Source of the DNA: Patescibacteria group bacterium
GTDB lineage: Bacteria; Patescibacteriota; Patescibacteriia; UBA2591; JAQUPP01
Assembly: GCA_028716665.1 (NCBI GenBank)
Contig: JAQUPP010000001.1
Coordinates: forward strand, 1 to 35,312
Direction: 5' to 3'
Length of the DNA stretch: 35,312 bases
Part shown: positions 16,484 through 24,573 of the stretch, one piece after another
Position numbering within the stretch: the first letter of the stretch is position 1
Layout: each line of letters starts with the position of its first letter
Notes under the pieces: generated by a model
Databases searched by the model: none
What the model was told of the DNA's origin: nothing
What the model saw: only the letters and a program-made list of their open reading frames with translations
Made by a program: the position numbers and the translations under genes

Positions 16484-18103
16484 TTAAATTAATTTTTTAA
16501 TCATTTCCTCTTCTTCTTTTAAAATATTTTCCCATAAATTAAAATTTTTGGAAGAAATAATTTCCATTTTATCTTTTAAATTTTTATTCAAAAGATTAAA
16601 GTTGTCGGGGTTATTCTCAATTAAATTAAGCAAAACGTCAATTTGCTCCAAATTTAAATGGCCGATCAACCTAAGCCAAAAATCTTTATCTTCCTTGCTT
16701 AAAGAAGAAAGAGAAATTATTTTTGTTAATCTTCTTTGTTGAATAAGGTCTTTAAATAACTCATCTATATTATTATTTTGATCTTCCATATTTACATTAT
16801 GTCTCATTTTATCGCTTTTGTCAATAATTATATTTAAGCCGATAATTAACCAAAATAAAACTGACAAATCATTTTTAAAATAAGGAGTGTCCACCAAACC
16901 ATGAATTAATATTGTTACCATGGCGGCCATAATCGTTAAGCTGGTAGGTTGGTAAGTTGGTAAGTTAATAAGTTTTATTTTTCTAAATCCGTCACGAAAA
17001 AATTTAATTAAAATCCACAAAAAAACAATCAATCCTGCCAACCCTAATTCGCACCAAAGAGCCAAAAATAAATTATGCGGATAAGGATGAGTTTCCACGG
17101 AAATCAATTGATGCGTTATTGGATCATAAAATCTGGCTTGATATTGGGAAATTAAATTCTGATAACCGCTTAAACCCACACCTAAAATCGGGTTGGTTTT
17201 AATCAAAGAAATCGCCCCTTGCCAAATATTAACCCGCAATTGTCCGGAAAGATTATAAAAAGTCACTTCTTGCCAAACATAATTTCGCGCCACTGGCAGC
17301 AATTCAATAATTAATAATAAAATAATTAAAGCAATTGTCGTCCACTTCCTGCTTGATTTATGAACAAGTCCCATAAAAATCAACCCGGCTAAAACTCCCA
17401 AAATCGCCCCATTACTTCTCGCTAAAATAATAGCTAAAACTGAAAATAAAATAGTAAAAGAATAAAATAAAATTTCAAATAATTCTTTATTTAATTTTAA
17501 ATTTTGCATTGTCATTTTGACTTTTGCACTTTGCACTTTGCACTTTAACTGGCCAATGGCCAGTATTATAATCGGACCCAGATACAATCCTAAAAAATTT
17601 GACTGGGGAAACAGACCGGTCGCCCGCCAAGTTTTCGGCGCGCCCCAAACTTCAGTGCTCATCATGCCGCCGAAATGAAAAATCTTTTGGCAAATCGCCC
17701 AAACAGAACAATAAAAAGCGGAAAAAATCAGCGCGTTTAAAATTAAATTAAAATCTTTTTTTGTTTTTATCAAATCAAGAAAAACTATTAATAAAAGAAT
17801 CGGTTCAATAAAATACGCTTTCCAGATTCCGGCCGCCTCTCGCAAATTTGGAGCAATAAACATGGAAATGGTGGCCACTGCTAACCAAATCAGAATTATC
17901 CAAAACCAGTTATTTAATTTTAAATTTTGAATTGTAATTTTGATTTTTGATTTTTGATTTTTGATTTTTTGTATCAGCCAAACTAAAAACAAAATCAAAA
18001 TCATTATTTCCAATAAAGTCATCGGCAAACCTAAAATCTGAAATCTGATTTGATAAGCCGGTAAAGCGGCGCAAACTAAAACTAAAAAATAAAAAATATA
18101 CAT
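16484..18103 (-). CDS. O-antigen ligase/polymerase-like (Wzy_C family) membrane protein with a soluble C-terminal tail
   Basis: 539 aa, more than 10 TM segments. The loop with ...RSNGAILGVLAGL... and HPHNLFL... is typical of O-antigen ligase-like proteins. It contains three low-complexity in-frame DNA repeats. Confidence 0.7.
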   Translation of the reverse strand: MYIFYFLVLVCAALPAYQIRFQILGLPMTLLEIMILILFLVWLIQKIKNQKSKIKITIQNLKLNNWFWIILIWLAVATISMFIAPNLREAAGIWKAYFIEPILLLIVFLDLIKTKKDFNLILNALIFSAFYCSVWAICQKIFHFGGMMSTEVWGAPKTWRATGLFPQSNFLGLYLGPIIILAIGQLKCKVQSAKVKMTMQNLKLNKELFEILFYSFTILFSVLAIILARSNGAILGVLAGLIFMGLVHKSSRKWTTIALIILLLIIELLPVARNYVWQEVTFYNLSGQLRVNIWQGAISLIKTNPILGVGLSGYQNLISQYQARFYDPITHQLISVETHPYPHNLFLALWCELGLAGLIVFLWILIKFFRDGFRKIKLINLPTYQPTSLTIMAAMVTILIHGLVDTPYFKNDLSVLFWLIIGLNIIIDKSDKMRHNVNMEDQNNNIDELFKDLIQQRRLTKIISLSSLSKEDKDFWLRLIGHLNLEQIDVLLNLIENNPDNFNLLNKNLKDKMEIISSKNFNLWENILKEEEEMIKKLI

Positions 18104-19901: not shown

Positions 19902-19931
19902 TTGACAAAAACGTAAAAAATGTGCTAAAAT
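19902..19931 (+). promoter_or_regulatory. Strong sigma-70 promoter of the rSAM-peptide operon
   Basis: TTGACA (19902-19907), an 18-nt spacer, an extended -10 TGc and TAAAAT (19926-19931). AAGGAGG Shine-Dalgarno at 19974-19980. Confidence 0.65.
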
Positions 19932-19986
19932 AATAACAATTACCCCTCTAGTTTGGGGGTGCAGTACCTTAAAAAGGAGGCAAAAG

Positions 19987-21252
19987 ATGAAAAAAAATTT
20001 CTTTTTTCTGAATAAAAAATGTGTTCTAGTTAAAGGGGCTTTGTGCGGTGCTTTATATGATTTGAAAACAGGAAATGTTTATTCAATTGATAGAACCTCA
20101 TTAAGACTTCTGGATTTTTGTAGTGAGGAAGGATTCTCTCTAAAAGAAGTTCTGGATATTTTAAATAATGAGTTGGCCAAGAAAGAAGCCTTGAGTTATT
20201 TATTACAACTTCAAAAAATGGGGTTGGGGAATTTTTCTCAAAGAAAAAAGATTAAGAGAAAAATAATGTTATTTTGTAACAAGAAAAAATTAGATTTTCT
20301 TTGGATAGAGTTAACCTCAAGTTGCAATCTAAGATGTCTCCACTGTTATAATTCCAGTGGTTGCAGAAAACTCGAATCAGAGAATATGGAATTAACAGAC
20401 TGGAAGAGAACTATTTCTCAGGCGAGAAAAATAGGATGTCGGAAGATTCAATTTACCGGTGGGGAACCGCTCTTGTGTCGACCTACTCTTTATCTATTGA
20501 TAAAATATGCCAAGAAATTACATTACGACTTTATCGAAATTTTTACAAACGGGACACTTCTGACAGATTCTGATATTGAGTATTTTTTAAAACAGAAGGT
20601 TCATGTAGCAGTTTCTTTTTATTCTGTTATAGAAAAAATCCATGAGAGTATTACTCAAGAATGTGGTAGTTATAAAAATACACTTTCAAACTTGAGAAAA
20701 CTTCAGAAAGCGGGCGTACCTTTCCGAATAGCTATTACGGTTATGAGAAACAACCAGAATTGCATAAAATCTACTGTTCGCTTTCTTAGAAAAAAAGTAG
20801 GGGCCGAAAAGATTAAATATGATATAGTGCGTCCTCTTGGTCGGGGCTGTGAATCAGGACTACTTACTGAAAATCTTAAGAAGGATTTACTCATTAAAAA
20901 ACCAAAATTTACCAAAATCCATGAGAAAACCTTTTTAAAAAGATTCTGTGGGCATAATTGTTATTCAGATCATTTATGTATTTCATCGCAGGGCGATATT
21001 TTCCCTTGTATTATGGAACGCGGATTAAAATTGGGTAATATAAAAAAAGATTCCATACAAAAAATTTGGGAATCTTCAACGGCTCAAAAAATAAAAAGTT
21101 TATCTAAAGATAAAATAATGGTTTGTCGAGACTGCGAATATCGCTATGCTTGTTTTGATTGCCGAGCAAAAGTGATGCAGCAAACAGGAAATTTATATGC
21201 GAAGCCTTTAGAATGCCAGTATAATCCCTATACGGGCAGATGGGGGCAGTAA
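19987..21252 (+). CDS. Radical SAM/SPASM-domain peptide maturase (RiPP-type) with N-terminal extension
   Basis: 421 aa. CNLRCLHCYN is the CxxxCxxC cluster motif. QFTGGEPL follows. The SPASM Cys pattern is C-x10-G-x4-C (CYSDHLCISSQGDIFPC), CRDCEYRYACFDC and a final ECQ. A ~100-aa domain precedes the rSAM core. Confidence 0.88.
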   Translation: MKKNFFFLNKKCVLVKGALCGALYDLKTGNVYSIDRTSLRLLDFCSEEGFSLKEVLDILNNELAKKEALSYLLQLQKMGLGNFSQRKKIKRKIMLFCNKKKLDFLWIELTSSCNLRCLHCYNSSGCRKLESENMELTDWKRTISQARKIGCRKIQFTGGEPLLCRPTLYLLIKYAKKLHYDFIEIFTNGTLLTDSDIEYFLKQKVHVAVSFYSVIEKIHESITQECGSYKNTLSNLRKLQKAGVPFRIAITVMRNNQNCIKSTVRFLRKKVGAEKIKYDIVRPLGRGCESGLLTENLKKDLLIKKPKFTKIHEKTFLKRFCGHNCYSDHLCISSQGDIFPCIMERGLKLGNIKKDSIQKIWESSTAQKIKSLSKDKIMVCRDCEYRYACFDCRAKVMQQTGNLYAKPLECQYNPYTGRWGQ

Positions 21253-21273
21253 ATAACAAAAGGAGGTGAAAAA

Positions 21274-21414
21274 ATGTTAAAGATCACGAATGTTACAACA
21301 GAAAAAGGAGGAGCGAAAACTTCTTGCCCTCCTGAAGACCATTGTAACCCTACTGACGGGAAGCCATGTAACCCAGAATGTATTCCTTCTGCCTGTGCAC
21401 CAGCGGGTAATTAA
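21274..21414 (+). CDS. Candidate RiPP precursor peptide, 46 aa, 5 Cys and 7 Pro (absent from the supplied ORF track)
   Basis: ATG at 21274, preceded by AGGAGGTG (21261-21268). Translation: MLKITNVTTEKGGAKTSCPPEDHCNPTDGKPCNPECIPSACAPAGN, with TAA at 21412-21414. It starts 21 nt after the rSAM stop and is followed by a terminator. Confidence 0.7.
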   Translation: MLKITNVTTEKGGAKTSCPPEDHCNPTDGKPCNPECIPSACAPAGN

Positions 21415-21423
21415 TCTCATCGT

Positions 21424-21466
21424 AAATAGGCTTTATTGTTATAAAACAGTAGAGCCTATTTTTTTG
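21424..21466. terminator. Stem-loop plus T-run ending the rSAM-peptide operon; it overlaps the 3' end of the convergent gene
   Basis: AAATAGGCT (21424-21432) pairs with AGCCTATTT (21453-21461), with a 20-nt loop, then TTTTTTT. Confidence 0.5.
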
Positions 21467-22242
21467 TCTATATTCTTCGAAAAAGTAAAAAAACTATTTT
21501 TTCCATTTTTATTTTCTCTAAGATATTTATGCCATTGAGGTAAAATTTGTTTTTCTAATTTTCTTAAAGATTTATGACCTATCTTAAATTTTCTTTCTTG
21601 GAAATATTTACCATTTTTATTCAACCTTATTCGCAACTCATTATCGCAGATGAGTTCAATTAGAGCGTGAAGATTGGTTTTGTCTCCAGAATAATTCTTA
21701 GTCAAGAAATGCATTATTTCATGACATAAGTAAACGGTAGTGTAATTTTGCCAATCCTCAGAATGACCATAAGTAATTATATTTAATTTTTTACCCCAAT
21801 ATCTTCCATTATGAAGTGCGGGGTGAACCAAGTAAACAGTTAAGGTTGCATCAGGTAAGGTTATTCCGGTTATATTTTTTAGATGTTTTAACGCCTCTTC
21901 TTTATTTTTTGACCATTGATTTTCTATTTCTTTTTTATAATTTTTTGTTTCTTGATAAATTTTTTTAAACTCTCTCGATTGAAACTCTTTTTTCAATATT
22001 TTTTCTGCAATCTTAATTTTTTTAGAAAGAGCCTGAATAAAAGTTTTAATTTCTCTATTTTCTAAACTGAGAGAAGAAATAAACCAATTATAATAAATTC
22101 CCGAGAGAATATAGTATGTACTTTCGGACTTCTTCCATAAACTGGATCCTAAGAGTTTTTTATTCTTATCTAAAAATTCAGCCTGCTTTATCAATTGTAA
22201 ATAAAGATAAATTTTATTGATTTCAAATTTCAATTTAAACAT
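21439..22242 (-). CDS. Hypothetical HExxH (zincin-like) metallopeptidase-motif protein
   Basis: 267 aa, no signal peptide. VYLCHEIMHFL, with a possible third ligand Glu in HALIELICDNE about 20 residues later. Confidence 0.5.
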   Translation of the reverse strand: MFKLKFEINKIYLYLQLIKQAEFLDKNKKLLGSSLWKKSESTYYILSGIYYNWFISSLSLENREIKTFIQALSKKIKIAEKILKKEFQSREFKKIYQETKNYKKEIENQWSKNKEEALKHLKNITGITLPDATLTVYLVHPALHNGRYWGKKLNIITYGHSEDWQNYTTVYLCHEIMHFLTKNYSGDKTNLHALIELICDNELRIRLNKNGKYFQERKFKIGHKSLRKLEKQILPQWHKYLRENKNGKNSFFTFSKNIDKKIGSTVL

Positions 22243-22328
22243 AATTAATTTAAATATTTATATTTAAATTATAGCATAAAATAAAATAATATGCAAAATT
22301 AATATCTTACTAATCTTATACAAACTAG

Positions 22329-24157: not shown

Positions 24158-24283
24158 CCACCAGAATGGCAATAAATGCTTGTTATGTATTTTTAAAAAA
24201 AGATTAGATTATAAAAAAAATAAATATAGATTTATTTATTAGAAGCAATGTTTCCGCATTTATAAAAAATACATTGCCATTCA

Positions 24284-24306
24284 GGTGGTGGAGCCCGCTC
24301 CAAAAT
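24284..24306 (+). repeat. Left copy of the 23-bp direct repeat flanking the GIY-YIG gene
   Basis: GGTGGTGGAGCCCGCTCCAAAAT, identical to 24582-24604. Confidence 0.9.
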
Positions 24307-24318
24307 TTCCAACTGATT

Positions 24319-24573
24319 ATGCTTTATGTATATTTATTAAAAAGTAAAAAAGATAAAAAATTATACATCGGTTTTACTGATGATTTGAAAAAACGTTTTA
24401 TTGAACATAGTAGAGGATTAGTCAAAGCGACTAAACCAAGACGTCCATTTGAAATAATTTATTACGAATCATATAAATCCAGAGAAGACGCTAAACAAAG
24501 AGAGTCTCGTTTAAAAAAATATAGTCGGGCTTATCATCAGCTTAAAATCAGAATAGAAAAAAGTTTAATGTAA
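24319..24573 (+). CDS. Stand-alone GIY-YIG nuclease domain protein (second copy)
   Basis: 84 aa from MLYVYLLKSKKDKKLYIGFTDDLKKRFIEHS...YYE...A..RE..LK. By eye it is roughly 40-45% identical to the 13797-14057 product. The tracked TTG-start extension (24274) runs through the flanking repeat and was discarded. Confidence 0.85.
   Translation: MLYVYLLKSKKDKKLYIGFTDDLKKRFIEHSRGLVKATKPRRPFEIIYYESYKSREDAKQRESRLKKYSRAYHQLKIRIEKSLM

What the first reader, a model, noticed from the sequence alone, without database searches (positions are those of the whole stretch)
19902..21466. Hidden 46-aa Cys/Pro-rich ORF directly behind a radical SAM/SPASM enzyme: candidate thioether RiPP operon (ranthipeptide/sactipeptide-like)
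Seen in the sequence:
(i) 19987-21252 encodes a 421-aa protein with the radical SAM cluster motif CNLRCLHCYN. It has a C-terminal SPASM-type Cys constellation (CYSDHLCISSQGDIFPC ... CRDCEYRYACFDC ... ECQ). A ~100-aa N-terminal extension precedes the core, where RiPP maturases usually carry a precursor-recognition (RRE/PqqD-like) domain.
(ii) 21 nt after its stop, behind a strong AGGAGGTG Shine-Dalgarno, an ORF too short for the supplied track (21274-21414) encodes MLKITNVTTEKGGAKTSCPPEDHCNPTDGKPCNPECIPSACAPAGN.
(iii) This peptide has a Cys-free hydrophilic N-terminal third ending in a GG-A motif. A 33-aa segment with 5 Cys and 7 Pro follows. Every Cys is followed by x-Pro (CPP, CNP, CNP, CIP, CAP), and the first two units are CxxxD (CPPED, CNPTD).
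(iv) A consensus-like extended -10 promoter upstream and a stem-loop plus T-run right after the peptide gene delimit a two-gene operon.
Established knowledge: SPASM radical SAM enzymes next to short Cys-rich ORFs install Cys-derived thioether crosslinks. Examples are sactipeptides and ranthipeptides such as SCIFF and freyrasin; freyrasin uses CxxxD repeats.
Inference: this is a leader-core precursor plus its maturase. I cannot assign the Cys-x-Pro periodicity to a named family. RiPP loci are poorly explored in small-genome CPR-like lineages. The operon contains no transporter, immunity gene or C39 protease, so export and leader removal are unexplained.
Basis: partly seen in the sequence, partly recalled or inferred. 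Interest (0 to 1): 0.88.

Follow-up and report, generated by a model that had tools for sequence, protein, structure and literature searches.

The report
Cys-x-Pro peptide, radical SAM maturase, zincin
The hidden 46-residue Cys/Pro-rich gene is real: it belongs to a widespread and apparently undescribed family of ribosomal peptides built from Cys-x-Pro units, encoded next to a dedicated radical SAM enzyme and, in many small-genome (CPR) bacteria, next to a previously unnoticed candidate zinc protease.

Summary
A 421-aa radical SAM/SPASM gene (19987-21252) is followed 21 nt later by a 46-aa ORF (21274-21414) in which all five Cys are C-x-P.

Comparative genomics shows this is a conserved system:
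- 61 of 80 homologous loci, from many bacterial phyla and archaea, carry a C-x-P-rich small ORF within 700 nt of the rSAM gene. Five more have it just beyond an intervening gene.
- The peptide is under purifying selection: 14 synonymous against 6-7 non-synonymous codon changes relative to its closest relatives.
- The peptides share a short leader motif resembling (E)LKKVT.
- The enzyme has an N-terminal RRE-like domain, and its best structural match is the SCIFF maturase CteB.

The convergent 267-aa ORF (21439-22242) belongs to an unannotated family with an invariant HExxH motif. It neighbours the rSAM gene in 20 loci, and an unrelated HEFGH family fills the same slot in 7 others. It is a candidate leader peptidase.

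The chemistry is not established. C-x-P units occur back-to-back and at the very C-terminus, so the modification must be local. A short-range thioether is most likely. An anSME-like oxidation of Cys is a serious rival, because sulfatase motifs also begin C-x-P.

No Pfam model, NCBIfam model or searchable paper describes the family.

The parts
19902..19931 (+). Sigma-70-like promoter with extended -10 (TTGACA, 18 nt, TG-TAAAAT) upstream of the rSAM gene
   Evidence: matches 11 of 12 positions with TG before the -10. This is a consensus match only; function was not tested.
19987..21252 (+). Radical SAM/SPASM peptide maturase, 421 aa
   Evidence: PF04055 4.5e-22, PF13186 6e-12; 519 homologues. 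AF2 pLDDT 92.4; best fold match CteB, E 1e-19.
19987..20241 (+). N-terminal RRE-like (PqqD-like winged-helix) domain, residues about 1-85
   Evidence: four beta-strands then three helices (residues 5-77); weak PqqD hit, E 0.044, residues 23-76. PF05402 precomputed on 12 of the 120 listed homologues; the alignment to CteB starts at residue 24 and covers the full length.
20323..20346 (+). CX3CX2C radical SAM cluster motif (C113, C117, C120)
   Evidence: Cys present in 38, 39 and 39 of 39 homologues.
20959..21216 (+). SPASM region with seven invariant Cys (C325, C341, C380, C383, C389, C392, C410) plus C331
   Evidence: the seven are Cys in 39 of 39; C331 is Cys in 28 of 39 (Ala in 7). PF13186.
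21261..21268 (+). Shine-Dalgarno AGGAGGTG, 5 nt before the peptide start codon
   Evidence: read directly from the sequence.
21274..21324 (+). Leader of the precursor peptide (MLKITNVTTEKGGAKTS), including the conserved core motif ITNVT
   Evidence: motif [ILVF]x[KLERQN][VLI][TS] in 38 of 39 curated leaders against 9.8% of control ORFs; relatives have MLEIKKVT and MLEIQKVT.
21325..21414 (+). Core of the precursor: five C-x-P units (CPP, CNP, CNP, CIP, CAP) plus stop codon
   Evidence: over 27 core codons, 14 synonymous-only against 6-7 non-synonymous changes versus L083 and L085; differences by codon position 6/3/20 and 5/3/20.
21424..21471 (+). Terminator-like hairpin and T-run after the peptide gene; it overlaps the last codons of the convergent gene
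   Evidence: 17-pair stem, 4-nt loop, followed by TTTTTGTCTAT.
21439..22242 (-). 267-aa soluble HExxH protein, a candidate zinc metallopeptidase (leader peptidase) and third gene of the cassette
   Evidence: neighbour of the rSAM gene in 20 loci; 70 homologues, all 'hypothetical', none with a Pfam domain; invariant H174, E175, H178, H192, E202; pLDDT 94.4; 530 cluster representatives; no hydrophobic segment.
21709..21723 (-). HEIMH (HExxH) motif, residues 174-178 of the 267-aa protein
   Evidence: invariant in 21 locus-derived and 47 database sequences.
22268..22297 (-). Promoter-like site upstream of the HExxH gene (TTTGCA, 18 nt, TG-TATAAT)
   Evidence: 10 of 12 matches. Consensus match only.

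Best explanation
This is a compact three-gene RiPP cassette.

1. The 46-aa gene encodes a precursor. It has a short leader carrying a conserved beta-strand-like motif ((E)LKKVT type; here LKITNVT) and a core made of five self-contained Cys-x-Pro units.
2. The 421-aa enzyme docks the leader on its N-terminal RRE-like domain. It then uses its radical SAM cluster and two SPASM auxiliary clusters to modify each Cys in turn.
3. The only conserved context is Pro at +2, and units can abut one another or end the peptide. The chemistry must therefore be local to the unit. Most likely it is a short-range thioether from the Cys sulfur to a backbone or ring carbon of a residue within two positions. The precedents are the micro-ring sactionines of enteropeptin, whose modified Cys sits in a C-P-P context, and suisactin.
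4. The convergent, soluble HExxH protein is the candidate zinc peptidase that removes the leader.

Shown: the genes, their conserved linkage, coding selection, the leader motif, the domain architecture, and the invariant metal-binding-type residues.
Inferred: leader binding, iterative modification, thioether chemistry, the peptidase role, and the biological role of the product.
For: Linkage. 49 of 80 loci have a same-strand ORF with at least 3 C-x-P within 600 nt. Among nearby ORFs 54 of 1335 reach that count, against 6 of 3733 distant ORFs. A start-codon-independent census gives 61 of 80, plus 5 where the peptide lies beyond the HExxH gene.

Motif. 372 of 396 Cys are C-x-P, and Pro at +2 is 95%.

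Coding. 14 synonymous against 6-7 non-synonymous codon changes.

Leader. The motif is in 38 of 39 curated leaders against 9.8% of controls.

Enzyme. Radical_SAM plus SPASM; seven invariant SPASM Cys; RRE-like fold; weak PqqD hit. The best PDB profile hits are SkfB, CteB and anSME. Foldseek ranks CteB at 1e-19, ahead of SkfB, SuiB and TigE, with anSME at 1e-13.

Local chemistry. There are 32 back-to-back CxPCxP occurrences in 10 peptides. Five peptides end exactly at C-x-P and 14 have one residue after it. The x position includes Gly 30 times.

Precedent. Enteropeptin has a thiomorpholine at ...G-O-C-P-P-S, and suisactin has 9-membered sactionine rings (PMC12395415).

HExxH gene. It is adjacent in 20 loci with invariant HExxH, H192 and E202. 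An unrelated HEFGH family sits in the same position in 7 loci. The weak fold hits are mostly M1/M61 gluzincins, including the lanthipeptide peptidase EryP.
Against: - No chemistry was or could be tested. No acceptor residue is conserved, and a thioether to Pro or to a variable backbone carbon within a 3-residue unit has no exact precedent.
- The enzyme reaches no sactipeptide or ranthipeptide NCBIfam cutoff.
- C331, a possible fourth ligand of auxiliary cluster I, is present in 28 of 39 sequences. Most members may therefore lack the open coordination site that CteB uses to bind the substrate Cys (the CteB and anSME ligand details are from my own knowledge).
- The HExxH protein has no significant structural or profile match to any peptidase (all Foldseek E > 1; PDB profile E > 0.1).
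- The closest full-length enzyme homologue (L082) has neither the HExxH gene nor a C-x-P cluster.
- No exporter is present.
Confidence: 0.55

Rival explanations
1. The cassette and the precursor-maturase relationship are the same, but the chemistry is oxidation of the Cys itself. The enzyme abstracts the Cys C-beta hydrogen, as anaerobic sulfatase-maturating enzymes do on C-x-P-x-R motifs, and forms a thioaldehyde. That is either hydrolysed to formylglycine or trapped by the neighbouring carbonyl as a thio-oxazole (as with SbtM). Pro at +2 supplies the turn that presents the Cys.
For: C-x-P is exactly the first three positions of the sulfatase motif CXPXR recognised by FGE and anSME (PMC13638132). 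The modification unit is self-contained and needs no acceptor residue. anSME is among the closest solved structures. C325-x5-C331-x9-C341 resembles the fully ligated auxiliary cluster I of anSME (the anSME ligand numbering is from my own knowledge). SbtM shows that rSAM enzymes can turn a peptide Cys into a thio-oxazole.
Against: Arg at +4 is essentially absent (9 of 416 units). The TIGR03942 score is 65 against a cutoff of 349. CteB, SkfB, SuiB and TigE all rank above anSME structurally. The enzyme carries an RRE, which anSME lacks. The residue after C341 is Ile, not the Asp that follows the equivalent Cys in anSMEcpe (for this family; the anSME residue is from my own knowledge). Peptides with up to 19 aldehydes would be unusually reactive.
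Confidence: 0.2
2. One reading: a freyrasin-like or SCIFF-like ranthipeptide, or a classical hairpin sactipeptide. Each Cys is linked to a specific downstream side chain (Asp at +4, or Thr/Asn) or to distant residues.
For: The first two units of the window peptide and of its closest relatives are CPP[ED]D and CNPTD. At +3, 218 of 416 units have one of D, E, N, S, T or Q. CteB and SkfB are the closest solved enzymes.
Against: Only 31 of 416 units are CxPx[D/E]. Units occur back-to-back with no spacer 32 times and at the very C-terminus in 5 peptides, which leaves no side-chain acceptor. Three of the five window units lack Asp at +4. No SCIFF, PapB-type, AlbA, SkfB or StsB model cutoff is reached.
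Confidence: 0.1
3. The rSAM and zincin genes are accessory tailoring genes of a graspetide (ATP-grasp) pathway, as described for CPR ATP-grasp loci, and the C-x-P ORF is not their main substrate.
For: Makarova et al. 2022 (PMC8939145) report SPASM rSAM enzymes and two zincin families in CPR ATP-grasp loci. An MvdD-type ATP-grasp lies near the cassette in L005, L013 and L014. The C-terminal SPASM part scores best against the grasp-with-spasm model TIGR04193 (87-118 bits).
Against: None of the window ORFs scanned against Pfam (the cassette's neighbours and most of the larger ORFs) is an ATP-grasp. Only 3 of 20 cassette loci have one within the flanks. The C-x-P ORF is the partner that stays linked to the rSAM gene across phyla. 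The TIGR04193 cutoff of 175 is not reached.
Confidence: 0.05
4. The small ORF is a chance reading frame and the rSAM enzyme acts on something else.
For: No homologue was found by the word-indexed protein search, and there is no Pfam or NCBIfam hit.
Against: Strong Shine-Dalgarno; third-position-dominated divergence; conserved adjacent C-x-P ORFs in 61-66 of 80 loci; 54 of 1335 nearby ORFs against 6 of 3733 distant ORFs.
Confidence: 0.02

Closest known systems
CteB / SCIFF system (ranthipeptide thermocellin; PDB 5WGG, 5WHY)
   Same: The architecture is the same: N-terminal RRE, radical SAM core and SPASM domain with two auxiliary clusters. CteB is the best structural match (Foldseek E 1e-19 over about 430 columns) and a profile hit that starts in the RRE. 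Both have a short Cys-rich precursor next to the enzyme, occur in anaerobes, and often lack an exporter in the locus.
   Different: Identity is about 19-20%. The SCIFF maturase and peptide models are not matched. The precursor motif here is C-x-P, not the SCIFF Cys pattern. Most members have a Cys (C331) where CteB aligns an Ala. A dedicated HExxH gene is present.
Enteropeptin and suisactin micro-ring sactipeptides
   Same: In both, a radical SAM enzyme links a Cys sulfur to the alpha-carbon of a residue one or two positions away (6- and 9-membered rings). The enteropeptin Cys sits in a C-P-P context (...G-O-C-P-P-S) (PMC12395415). This is the best precedent for a self-contained local unit.
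   Different: Those peptides have one or two Cys rather than 3-19 repeated units. Enteropeptin also carries N-methylornithine. Homology between their maturases and this enzyme was not tested. Whether Pro is required there is unknown to me.
PapB / freyrasin (CX3D ranthipeptide)
   Same: A short Cys-containing unit is modified iteratively by one rSAM/SPASM enzyme. The first two units of the window core fit CxxxD.
   Different: Asp or Glu at +4 occurs in only 31 of 416 units. The conserved residue here is Pro at +2. Enzyme membership was not shown.
Anaerobic sulfatase-maturating enzymes (AtsB, anSMEcpe; PDB 4K36-4K39)
   Same: These are radical SAM/SPASM enzymes acting on a Cys in a C-x-P(-x-R) motif, and they are among the nearest solved structures.
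   Different: They have no RRE and act on folded-protein (sulfatase) substrates. R at +4 is absent here (9 of 416). TIGR03942 scores 65 against 349 bits.
SPASM and zincin genes in CPR ATP-grasp (graspetide) loci (Makarova et al. 2022)
   Same: The lineages (CPR) and the gene types (SPASM maturase, zincin peptidases) are the same. That paper could not identify precursors in most branch-2 loci. Three related loci here have an MvdD-type ATP-grasp nearby.
   Different: The window cassette has no ATP-grasp. The C-x-P precursors and the specific rSAM-peptide-HExxH linkage are not described in that paper.

Membership tests
Radical SAM/SPASM RiPP maturase (general class) | CX3CX2C radical SAM motif and TIM-barrel core | tested here: met
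   PF04055 E 4.5e-22. C113, C117 and C120 are conserved in 38-39 of 39 sequences.
Radical SAM/SPASM RiPP maturase (general class) | SPASM domain with the 7-Cys motif for two auxiliary 4Fe-4S clusters | tested here: met
   PF13186 E 6e-12. Seven invariant Cys.
Radical SAM/SPASM RiPP maturase (general class) | RiPP recognition element (PqqD-like domain) fused or adjacent | tested here: met
   AF2 gives four strands then three helices at residues 5-77. PqqD hit at E 0.044, below the cutoff. PF05402 is recorded on 12 listed homologues. Full-length alignment to CteB including its RRE.
Radical SAM/SPASM RiPP maturase (general class) | Co-located short precursor with a conserved leader and a variable core | tested here: met
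Ranthipeptides (SCIFF or freyrasin type) | Cys sulfur linked to a beta- or gamma-carbon of the acceptor residue | not testable with these tools
   Requires MS/MS and NMR of the modified peptide.
Ranthipeptides (SCIFF or freyrasin type) | Family HMMs (SCIFF peptide and maturase) or the CX3D acceptor pattern | tested here: not met
   No NCBIfam hit for the peptides. No SCIFF maturase model appears among the best 25 shown of 78 hits. CxPx[D/E] in 31 of 416 units.
Sactipeptides | Cys sulfur to alpha-carbon (sactionine) bonds | not testable with these tools
   Requires chemical analysis.
Sactipeptides | Membership of a characterised sactisynthase family (AlbA, SkfB, StsB models) | tested here: not met
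   AlbA 82.5 against 850 bits, SkfB 77.6 against 300, StsB 88.2 against 625. Homologues give the same picture.
Anaerobic sulfatase-maturating enzyme | TIGR03942 equivalog score | tested here: not met
   65 bits against a cutoff of 349.45.
Anaerobic sulfatase-maturating enzyme | Substrate motif C/S-x-P-x-R in a sulfatase | tested here: not met
   C-x-P is present, but R at +4 occurs in only 9 of 416 units. The substrate is a 46-aa peptide, and none of the scanned neighbouring genes is a sulfatase.
Grasp-with-SPASM system (TIGR04193) | Equivalog score and an associated ATP-grasp ligase | tested here: not met
   87.5 against 175 bits, C-terminal part only. No ATP-grasp among the window ORFs scanned.
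Zincin metallopeptidase (for the 267-aa protein) | HExxH motif plus a third metal ligand on the following helix | tested here: met
   H174, E175 and H178 are invariant, and H192 and E202 are invariant on the next helix (188-208).
Zincin metallopeptidase (for the 267-aa protein) | Significant sequence or structural similarity to a known peptidase family | tested here: inconclusive
   No Pfam hit. PDB profile E > 0.1. Best Foldseek E 2.3, but 19 of the 24 weak hits are to M1/M61 gluzincin peptidases, including EryP.
Zincin metallopeptidase (for the 267-aa protein) | Proteolytic activity on the precursor | not testable with these tools
   Requires a biochemical assay.

The most novel reading that the evidence does not exclude
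Cys-x-Pro is a self-contained three-residue modification unit whose chemistry is not yet known among RiPPs. It could be a Cys-to-Pro (or Cys to adjacent backbone) micro-ring, or an anSME-like conversion of every Cys to a formylglycine- or thioaldehyde-derived group. In either case it is installed iteratively by one rSAM/SPASM enzyme. In CPR bacteria the product, released by a new family of zincin peptidases and lacking any exporter, would act inside the cell as a cofactor-like or metal-binding molecule, in the manner of PQQ or mycofactocin, rather than as a secreted antibiotic.
Probability: 0.3. Interest if true: 0.82.

Novelty: new variant of a known kind. Interest (0 to 1): 0.62.

Why it matters
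Radical SAM/SPASM enzymes next to Cys-rich peptides are a known paradigm. Here, though, the substrate logic is unusually simple and strict: only Cys and Pro at +2 are conserved, in 3 to 19 repeats. The family reaches from CPR bacteria to Firmicutes, Synergistota, Desulfobacterota, Chloroflexota and several archaeal lineages, and it has no curated model or searchable description.

It offers four things:
- A defined minimal recognition unit for enzymology and peptide engineering.
- A direct test of whether the sulfatase-type C-x-P logic has been recruited into RiPP biosynthesis.
- Candidate precursors for the CPR SPASM/zincin loci whose substrates earlier work could not find.
- Two unannotated HExxH families as candidate RiPP leader peptidases.

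A conserved cassette of under 2.5 kb in otherwise minimal CPR genomes also suggests a function important to their lifestyle.

Tried and rejected
- Word-indexed homologue search with the 46-aa peptide: no candidates. Relatives were found through genomic context instead.
- Pfam and NCBIfam scans of the window peptide and ten homologous peptides: nothing relevant.
- NCBIfam scans of the window enzyme and six homologues, including cultured Sporomusa, Pelosinus, Clostridium, Selenomonas and Lutispora: no cutoff reached.
- Ten literature searches: no description of a C-x-P rSAM RiPP family. Hudson 2019 and Haft 2011 could not be read because they are not held.
- PDB profile and Foldseek searches for the HExxH protein: no significant match.
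- Pfam scan of longer HExxH-family proteins for informative fusions: only M23 and beta-lactamase domains, probably uninformative.
- hhalign between the two HExxH families: no homology beyond the motif.
- Using auxiliary-cluster ligation (C331) to choose between thioether and anSME-type chemistry: inconclusive, since the family is mixed.
- ATP-grasp association: rejected for the window.
- Rfam scan: no riboswitch or regulatory RNA at the locus.
- My first ORF-based census undercounted (49 of 80), because some ORFs extend into the rSAM gene or lie on the other strand. It was replaced by a stop-to-stop census (61 of 80).
Full report
**1. The observation**

- ORF 19987-21252 (+) encodes a 421-aa protein containing CNLRCLHC. 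After a 21-nt spacer holding AGGAGGTG (21261-21268), a 46-aa ORF (21274-21414) reads MLKITNVTTEKGGAKTSCPPEDHCNPTDGKPCNPECIPSACAPAGN.
- Pfam finds Radical_SAM at residues 107-267 (E 4.5e-22) and SPASM at 326-384 (E 6e-12).
- The promoter-like site (19902-19931, 11 of 12 matches with TG) and the hairpin plus T-run (21424-21461) are both recovered by the consensus scan.
- All five Cys are followed by x-Pro. Only 34 of 200,000 shuffles of the core reach that count, and no other C-x-P cluster exists in the 35-kb window.

**2. Is the small ORF a gene, and is it linked to the enzyme?**

The peptide has no hit in Pfam or NCBIfam, and none in a word-indexed search of 5.8 billion proteins. The enzyme, by contrast, has more than 500 full-length homologues. 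At least 576 stretches in one-genome-per-species GTDB contigs encode a relative.

I fetched 80 of these loci. They include Patescibacteria, Sporomusaceae, Clostridia, Selenomonadales, Synergistaceae, Desulfobacterota, Chloroflexota, Latescibacterota, Methanosarcinales, Bathyarchaeia and Woesearchaeota.
- 49 of 80 have a same-strand ORF with at least 3 C-x-P within 600 nt of the rSAM gene. Such ORFs make up 54 of 1335 nearby ORFs but only 6 of 3733 ORFs more than 1.5 kb away.
- A census independent of start codon and strand raises this to 61 of 80. In five more loci the peptide lies just beyond an intervening gene.
- In 50 such peptides, 372 of 396 Cys are C-x-P. No other position is conserved. 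The peptides were selected for having at least 3 C-x-P, so this figure is partly, though not wholly, a consequence of selection.

The closest relatives with a peptide (enzyme about 54% identical) encode MLEIKKVT...CPPDDSCNPTDGSPCSPECIPAACSPS and MLEIQKVT...CPPDDICNPTDGSPCSPECIPAACSPADD. Over 27 aligned core codons there are 14 synonymous-only changes against 6-7 non-synonymous ones. Differences by codon position are 6/3/20 and 5/3/20. The ORF is therefore translated and under purifying selection.

The leaders share a core motif [ILVF]-x-[KLERQN]-[VLI]-[TS], for example ELKKVT, IELVT, or ITNVT in the window. It is present in 38 of 39 curated leaders against 9.8% of control small ORFs, and it ends 6-26 residues before the first C-x-P. 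I defined the motif after seeing the data, so the contrast is illustrative.

**3. The enzyme**

- The AlphaFold model is confident (pLDDT 92.4). Its N-terminal domain has four strands followed by three helices at residues 5-77, resembling the PqqD-like RRE fold.
- Pfam PqqD matches residues 23-76 weakly (E 0.044). PF05402 is recorded on 12 of the 120 listed homologues.
- A family profile hits SkfB (2e-29), CteB (7e-22, aligned from residue 24) and anSME (8e-21) in the PDB.
- Foldseek ranks CteB first (1e-19, about 430 columns), then SkfB, SuiB and TigE, which are all RiPP maturases. anSME follows at 1e-13.
- Seven SPASM Cys are invariant. An eighth, C331, is present in 28 of 39 sequences and aligns with an Ala in CteB.
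- No NCBIfam equivalog cutoff is approached by the window enzyme or by six homologues, including those from cultured Firmicutes. The recurring partial hit is the C-terminal part of the grasp-with-spasm model.

**4.

The 267-aa ORF on the opposite strand (21439-22242) ends inside the terminator hairpin.
- Clustering the neighbours of all loci shows this protein next to the rSAM gene in 20 loci, usually arranged rSAM → peptide → ← HExxH.
- H174, E175 and H178 (HExxH), together with H192 and E202, are invariant in 47 database homologues.
- The family has 70 close homologues, all called hypothetical and none with a Pfam domain. It has 530 cluster representatives among 1.84 billion proteins.
- The model is confident (pLDDT 94.4), and the protein has no hydrophobic segment.
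- No structural match is significant. Even so, 19 of the 24 weak hits are to M1/M61 gluzincin peptidases, including the lanthipeptide leader peptidase EryP.
- In seven other CPR loci a different family with HEFGH occupies the same slot, and hhalign finds no homology beyond the motif. Two unrelated HExxH families in one position argue that a zincin activity is part of the system. Leader removal is the obvious candidate.
- None of the window ORFs scanned against Pfam (the cassette's neighbours and most of the larger ORFs) is an exporter, a C39 peptidase or an ATP-grasp. The only transporter found is a P-type cation ATPase about 12.5 kb away.

**5. How it most likely works**

Shown: a conserved rSAM-peptide(-zincin) cassette, a leader motif, an RRE-like domain, and a strict C-x-P core.

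Inferred: the RRE binds the leader, the enzyme processes each Cys in turn, and the zincin trims the leader.

The data constrain the chemistry (59 peptides, 416 units).
- C-x-P units occur back-to-back 32 times.
- Five peptides end exactly at C-x-P and 14 have one residue after it.
- The x position can be Gly (30 times).
- Arg at +4 occurs in 9 of 416 units, and Asp or Glu at +4 in 31 of 416.

A conserved side-chain acceptor is therefore excluded. The reaction must take place within or immediately around the three-residue unit.

Two chemistries fit.
- (a) A short-range thioether to a backbone alpha-carbon or a Pro ring carbon. Precedents are enteropeptin, a six-membered ring whose Cys is in ...G-O-C-P-P-S, and suisactin, with nine-membered rings (PMC12395415).
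- (b) Oxidation of the Cys C-beta, as in anSME, whose substrate motif CXPXR begins with the same C-x-P (PMC13638132). This would give formylglycine or a thio-oxazole.

I favour (a), because the nearest relatives are thioether synthases that carry RREs. I hold it at only about 0.45-0.5 as chemistry, and at 0.55 for the overall model. I put (b) at about 0.2.

**6. Comparison with what is known, and novelty**

The system works like a sacti- or ranthipeptide system and is architecturally closest to CteB/SCIFF. It fails every family-level membership test that could be run (SCIFF, AlbA, SkfB, StsB, anSME, grasp-with-spasm).

Makarova et al. 2022 noted SPASM maturases and two zincin families in CPR ATP-grasp loci but could not identify most precursors. 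Three related loci here have an MvdD-type ATP-grasp nearby, while the window and most cassettes do not.

Ten full-text searches found no description of C-x-P precursors. The library lacks most subscription-journal papers, so prior description cannot be excluded.

I rate it a new variant of a known kind, with interest 0.62. It is a solid, widespread and apparently unnamed RiPP family with an unusually minimal recognition unit and new candidate peptidases, but it lies within an established paradigm and its chemistry is unproven.

Noticed in passing
L002:2410-2685: In an uncultured archaeon the rSAM ORF continues in frame into a C-x-P-rich tail with 8 units. This is either a natural enzyme-substrate fusion or a lost stop codon or assembly error.
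   Followed up: no
L012:2698-2832: A Wolfebacteria precursor has an in-frame TAG between the leader (MKNKKLKLEIKKVTPAS) and the C-x-P core (AVGSGPCGPQTCTPADPDQCQPTHGW). It could be a pseudogene, a sequencing error or read-through.
   Followed up: partly
L082:2727-2849: The closest full-length enzyme homologue (54% identity, 304-kb contig) has no HExxH gene and no C-x-P cluster. An upstream 40-aa ORF (...SIKLVNSLSKKKDGKRCGPLIDD) has a leader-like motif and a single CGP, so it may be a one-unit precursor.
   Followed up: partly
L062:1504-3851 and L067:2967-3903: Selenomonadales loci carry arrays of up to nine C-x-P precursor genes. Their leaders are of the double-glycine type (LDKVSGG), unlike the CPR leaders.
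   Followed up: no
L029:3406-3900, L034:5-310, L038:3695-3979: Archaeal members encode longer C-x-P proteins (94-164 aa) with a C-terminal coiled-coil-like segment (...IDEI.A.VE.LTAEIE.LKK...).
   Followed up: no
L009:5229-5414, L014:1434-1571, L015:2973-3101: A CPR sub-clade has a variant core, CGPDTCPW(V/I)xC, with only one canonical C-x-P. It keeps the leader motif (LEIQLVT) and the HExxH neighbour.
   Followed up: no
L072:3711-3809, L078:3695-3814: Two deltaproteobacterial homologues have instead a 3-Cys peptide without C-x-P (KLISLVEHVENFSCGNGDSHCMCSLG). Related enzymes may therefore serve other precursor types.
   Followed up: no
L007:1893-2552 (also L010, L015, L043): A third small HExxH protein type (219 aa, HEIMH) recurs in four cassette loci. 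It has weak Peptidase_M78 and SprT-like hits.
   Followed up: partly
L005:6866-7855, L013:722-1732, L014:2652-3659: An MvdD-type ATP-grasp ligase lies within a few kb of the cassette in three CPR loci. This links some cassettes to the graspetide loci of Makarova et al. 2022.
   Followed up: partly
window:17487-17540 and 17910-17963: A 54-nt direct repeat (83% identity) lies inside the Wzy_C/O-antigen-ligase-like ORF (16484-18103, minus strand). Each copy codes for a Lys/Ile-rich ...QNLKLN... insert.
   Followed up: no
window:23905-24573: tRNA-Pro(TGG) and tRNA-Gly(TCC) are followed immediately by a 99-aa GIY-YIG nuclease-domain ORF (24274-24573).
   Followed up: no
window:25572-27157: Two adjacent ORFs (304 and 223 aa, minus strand) both match the OMP decarboxylase/HUMPS family.
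   Followed up: no
window:19943-19959: There is a small CCCC...GGGGG inverted repeat in the 5' untranslated region, between the promoter-like site and the rSAM start codon. No Rfam family matches there.
   Followed up: no
window:1-146: The 5' end of a bacterial 23S rRNA gene lies on the minus strand at the window edge. The homologues' names place the window in Patescibacteria/Parcubacteria.
   Followed up: no
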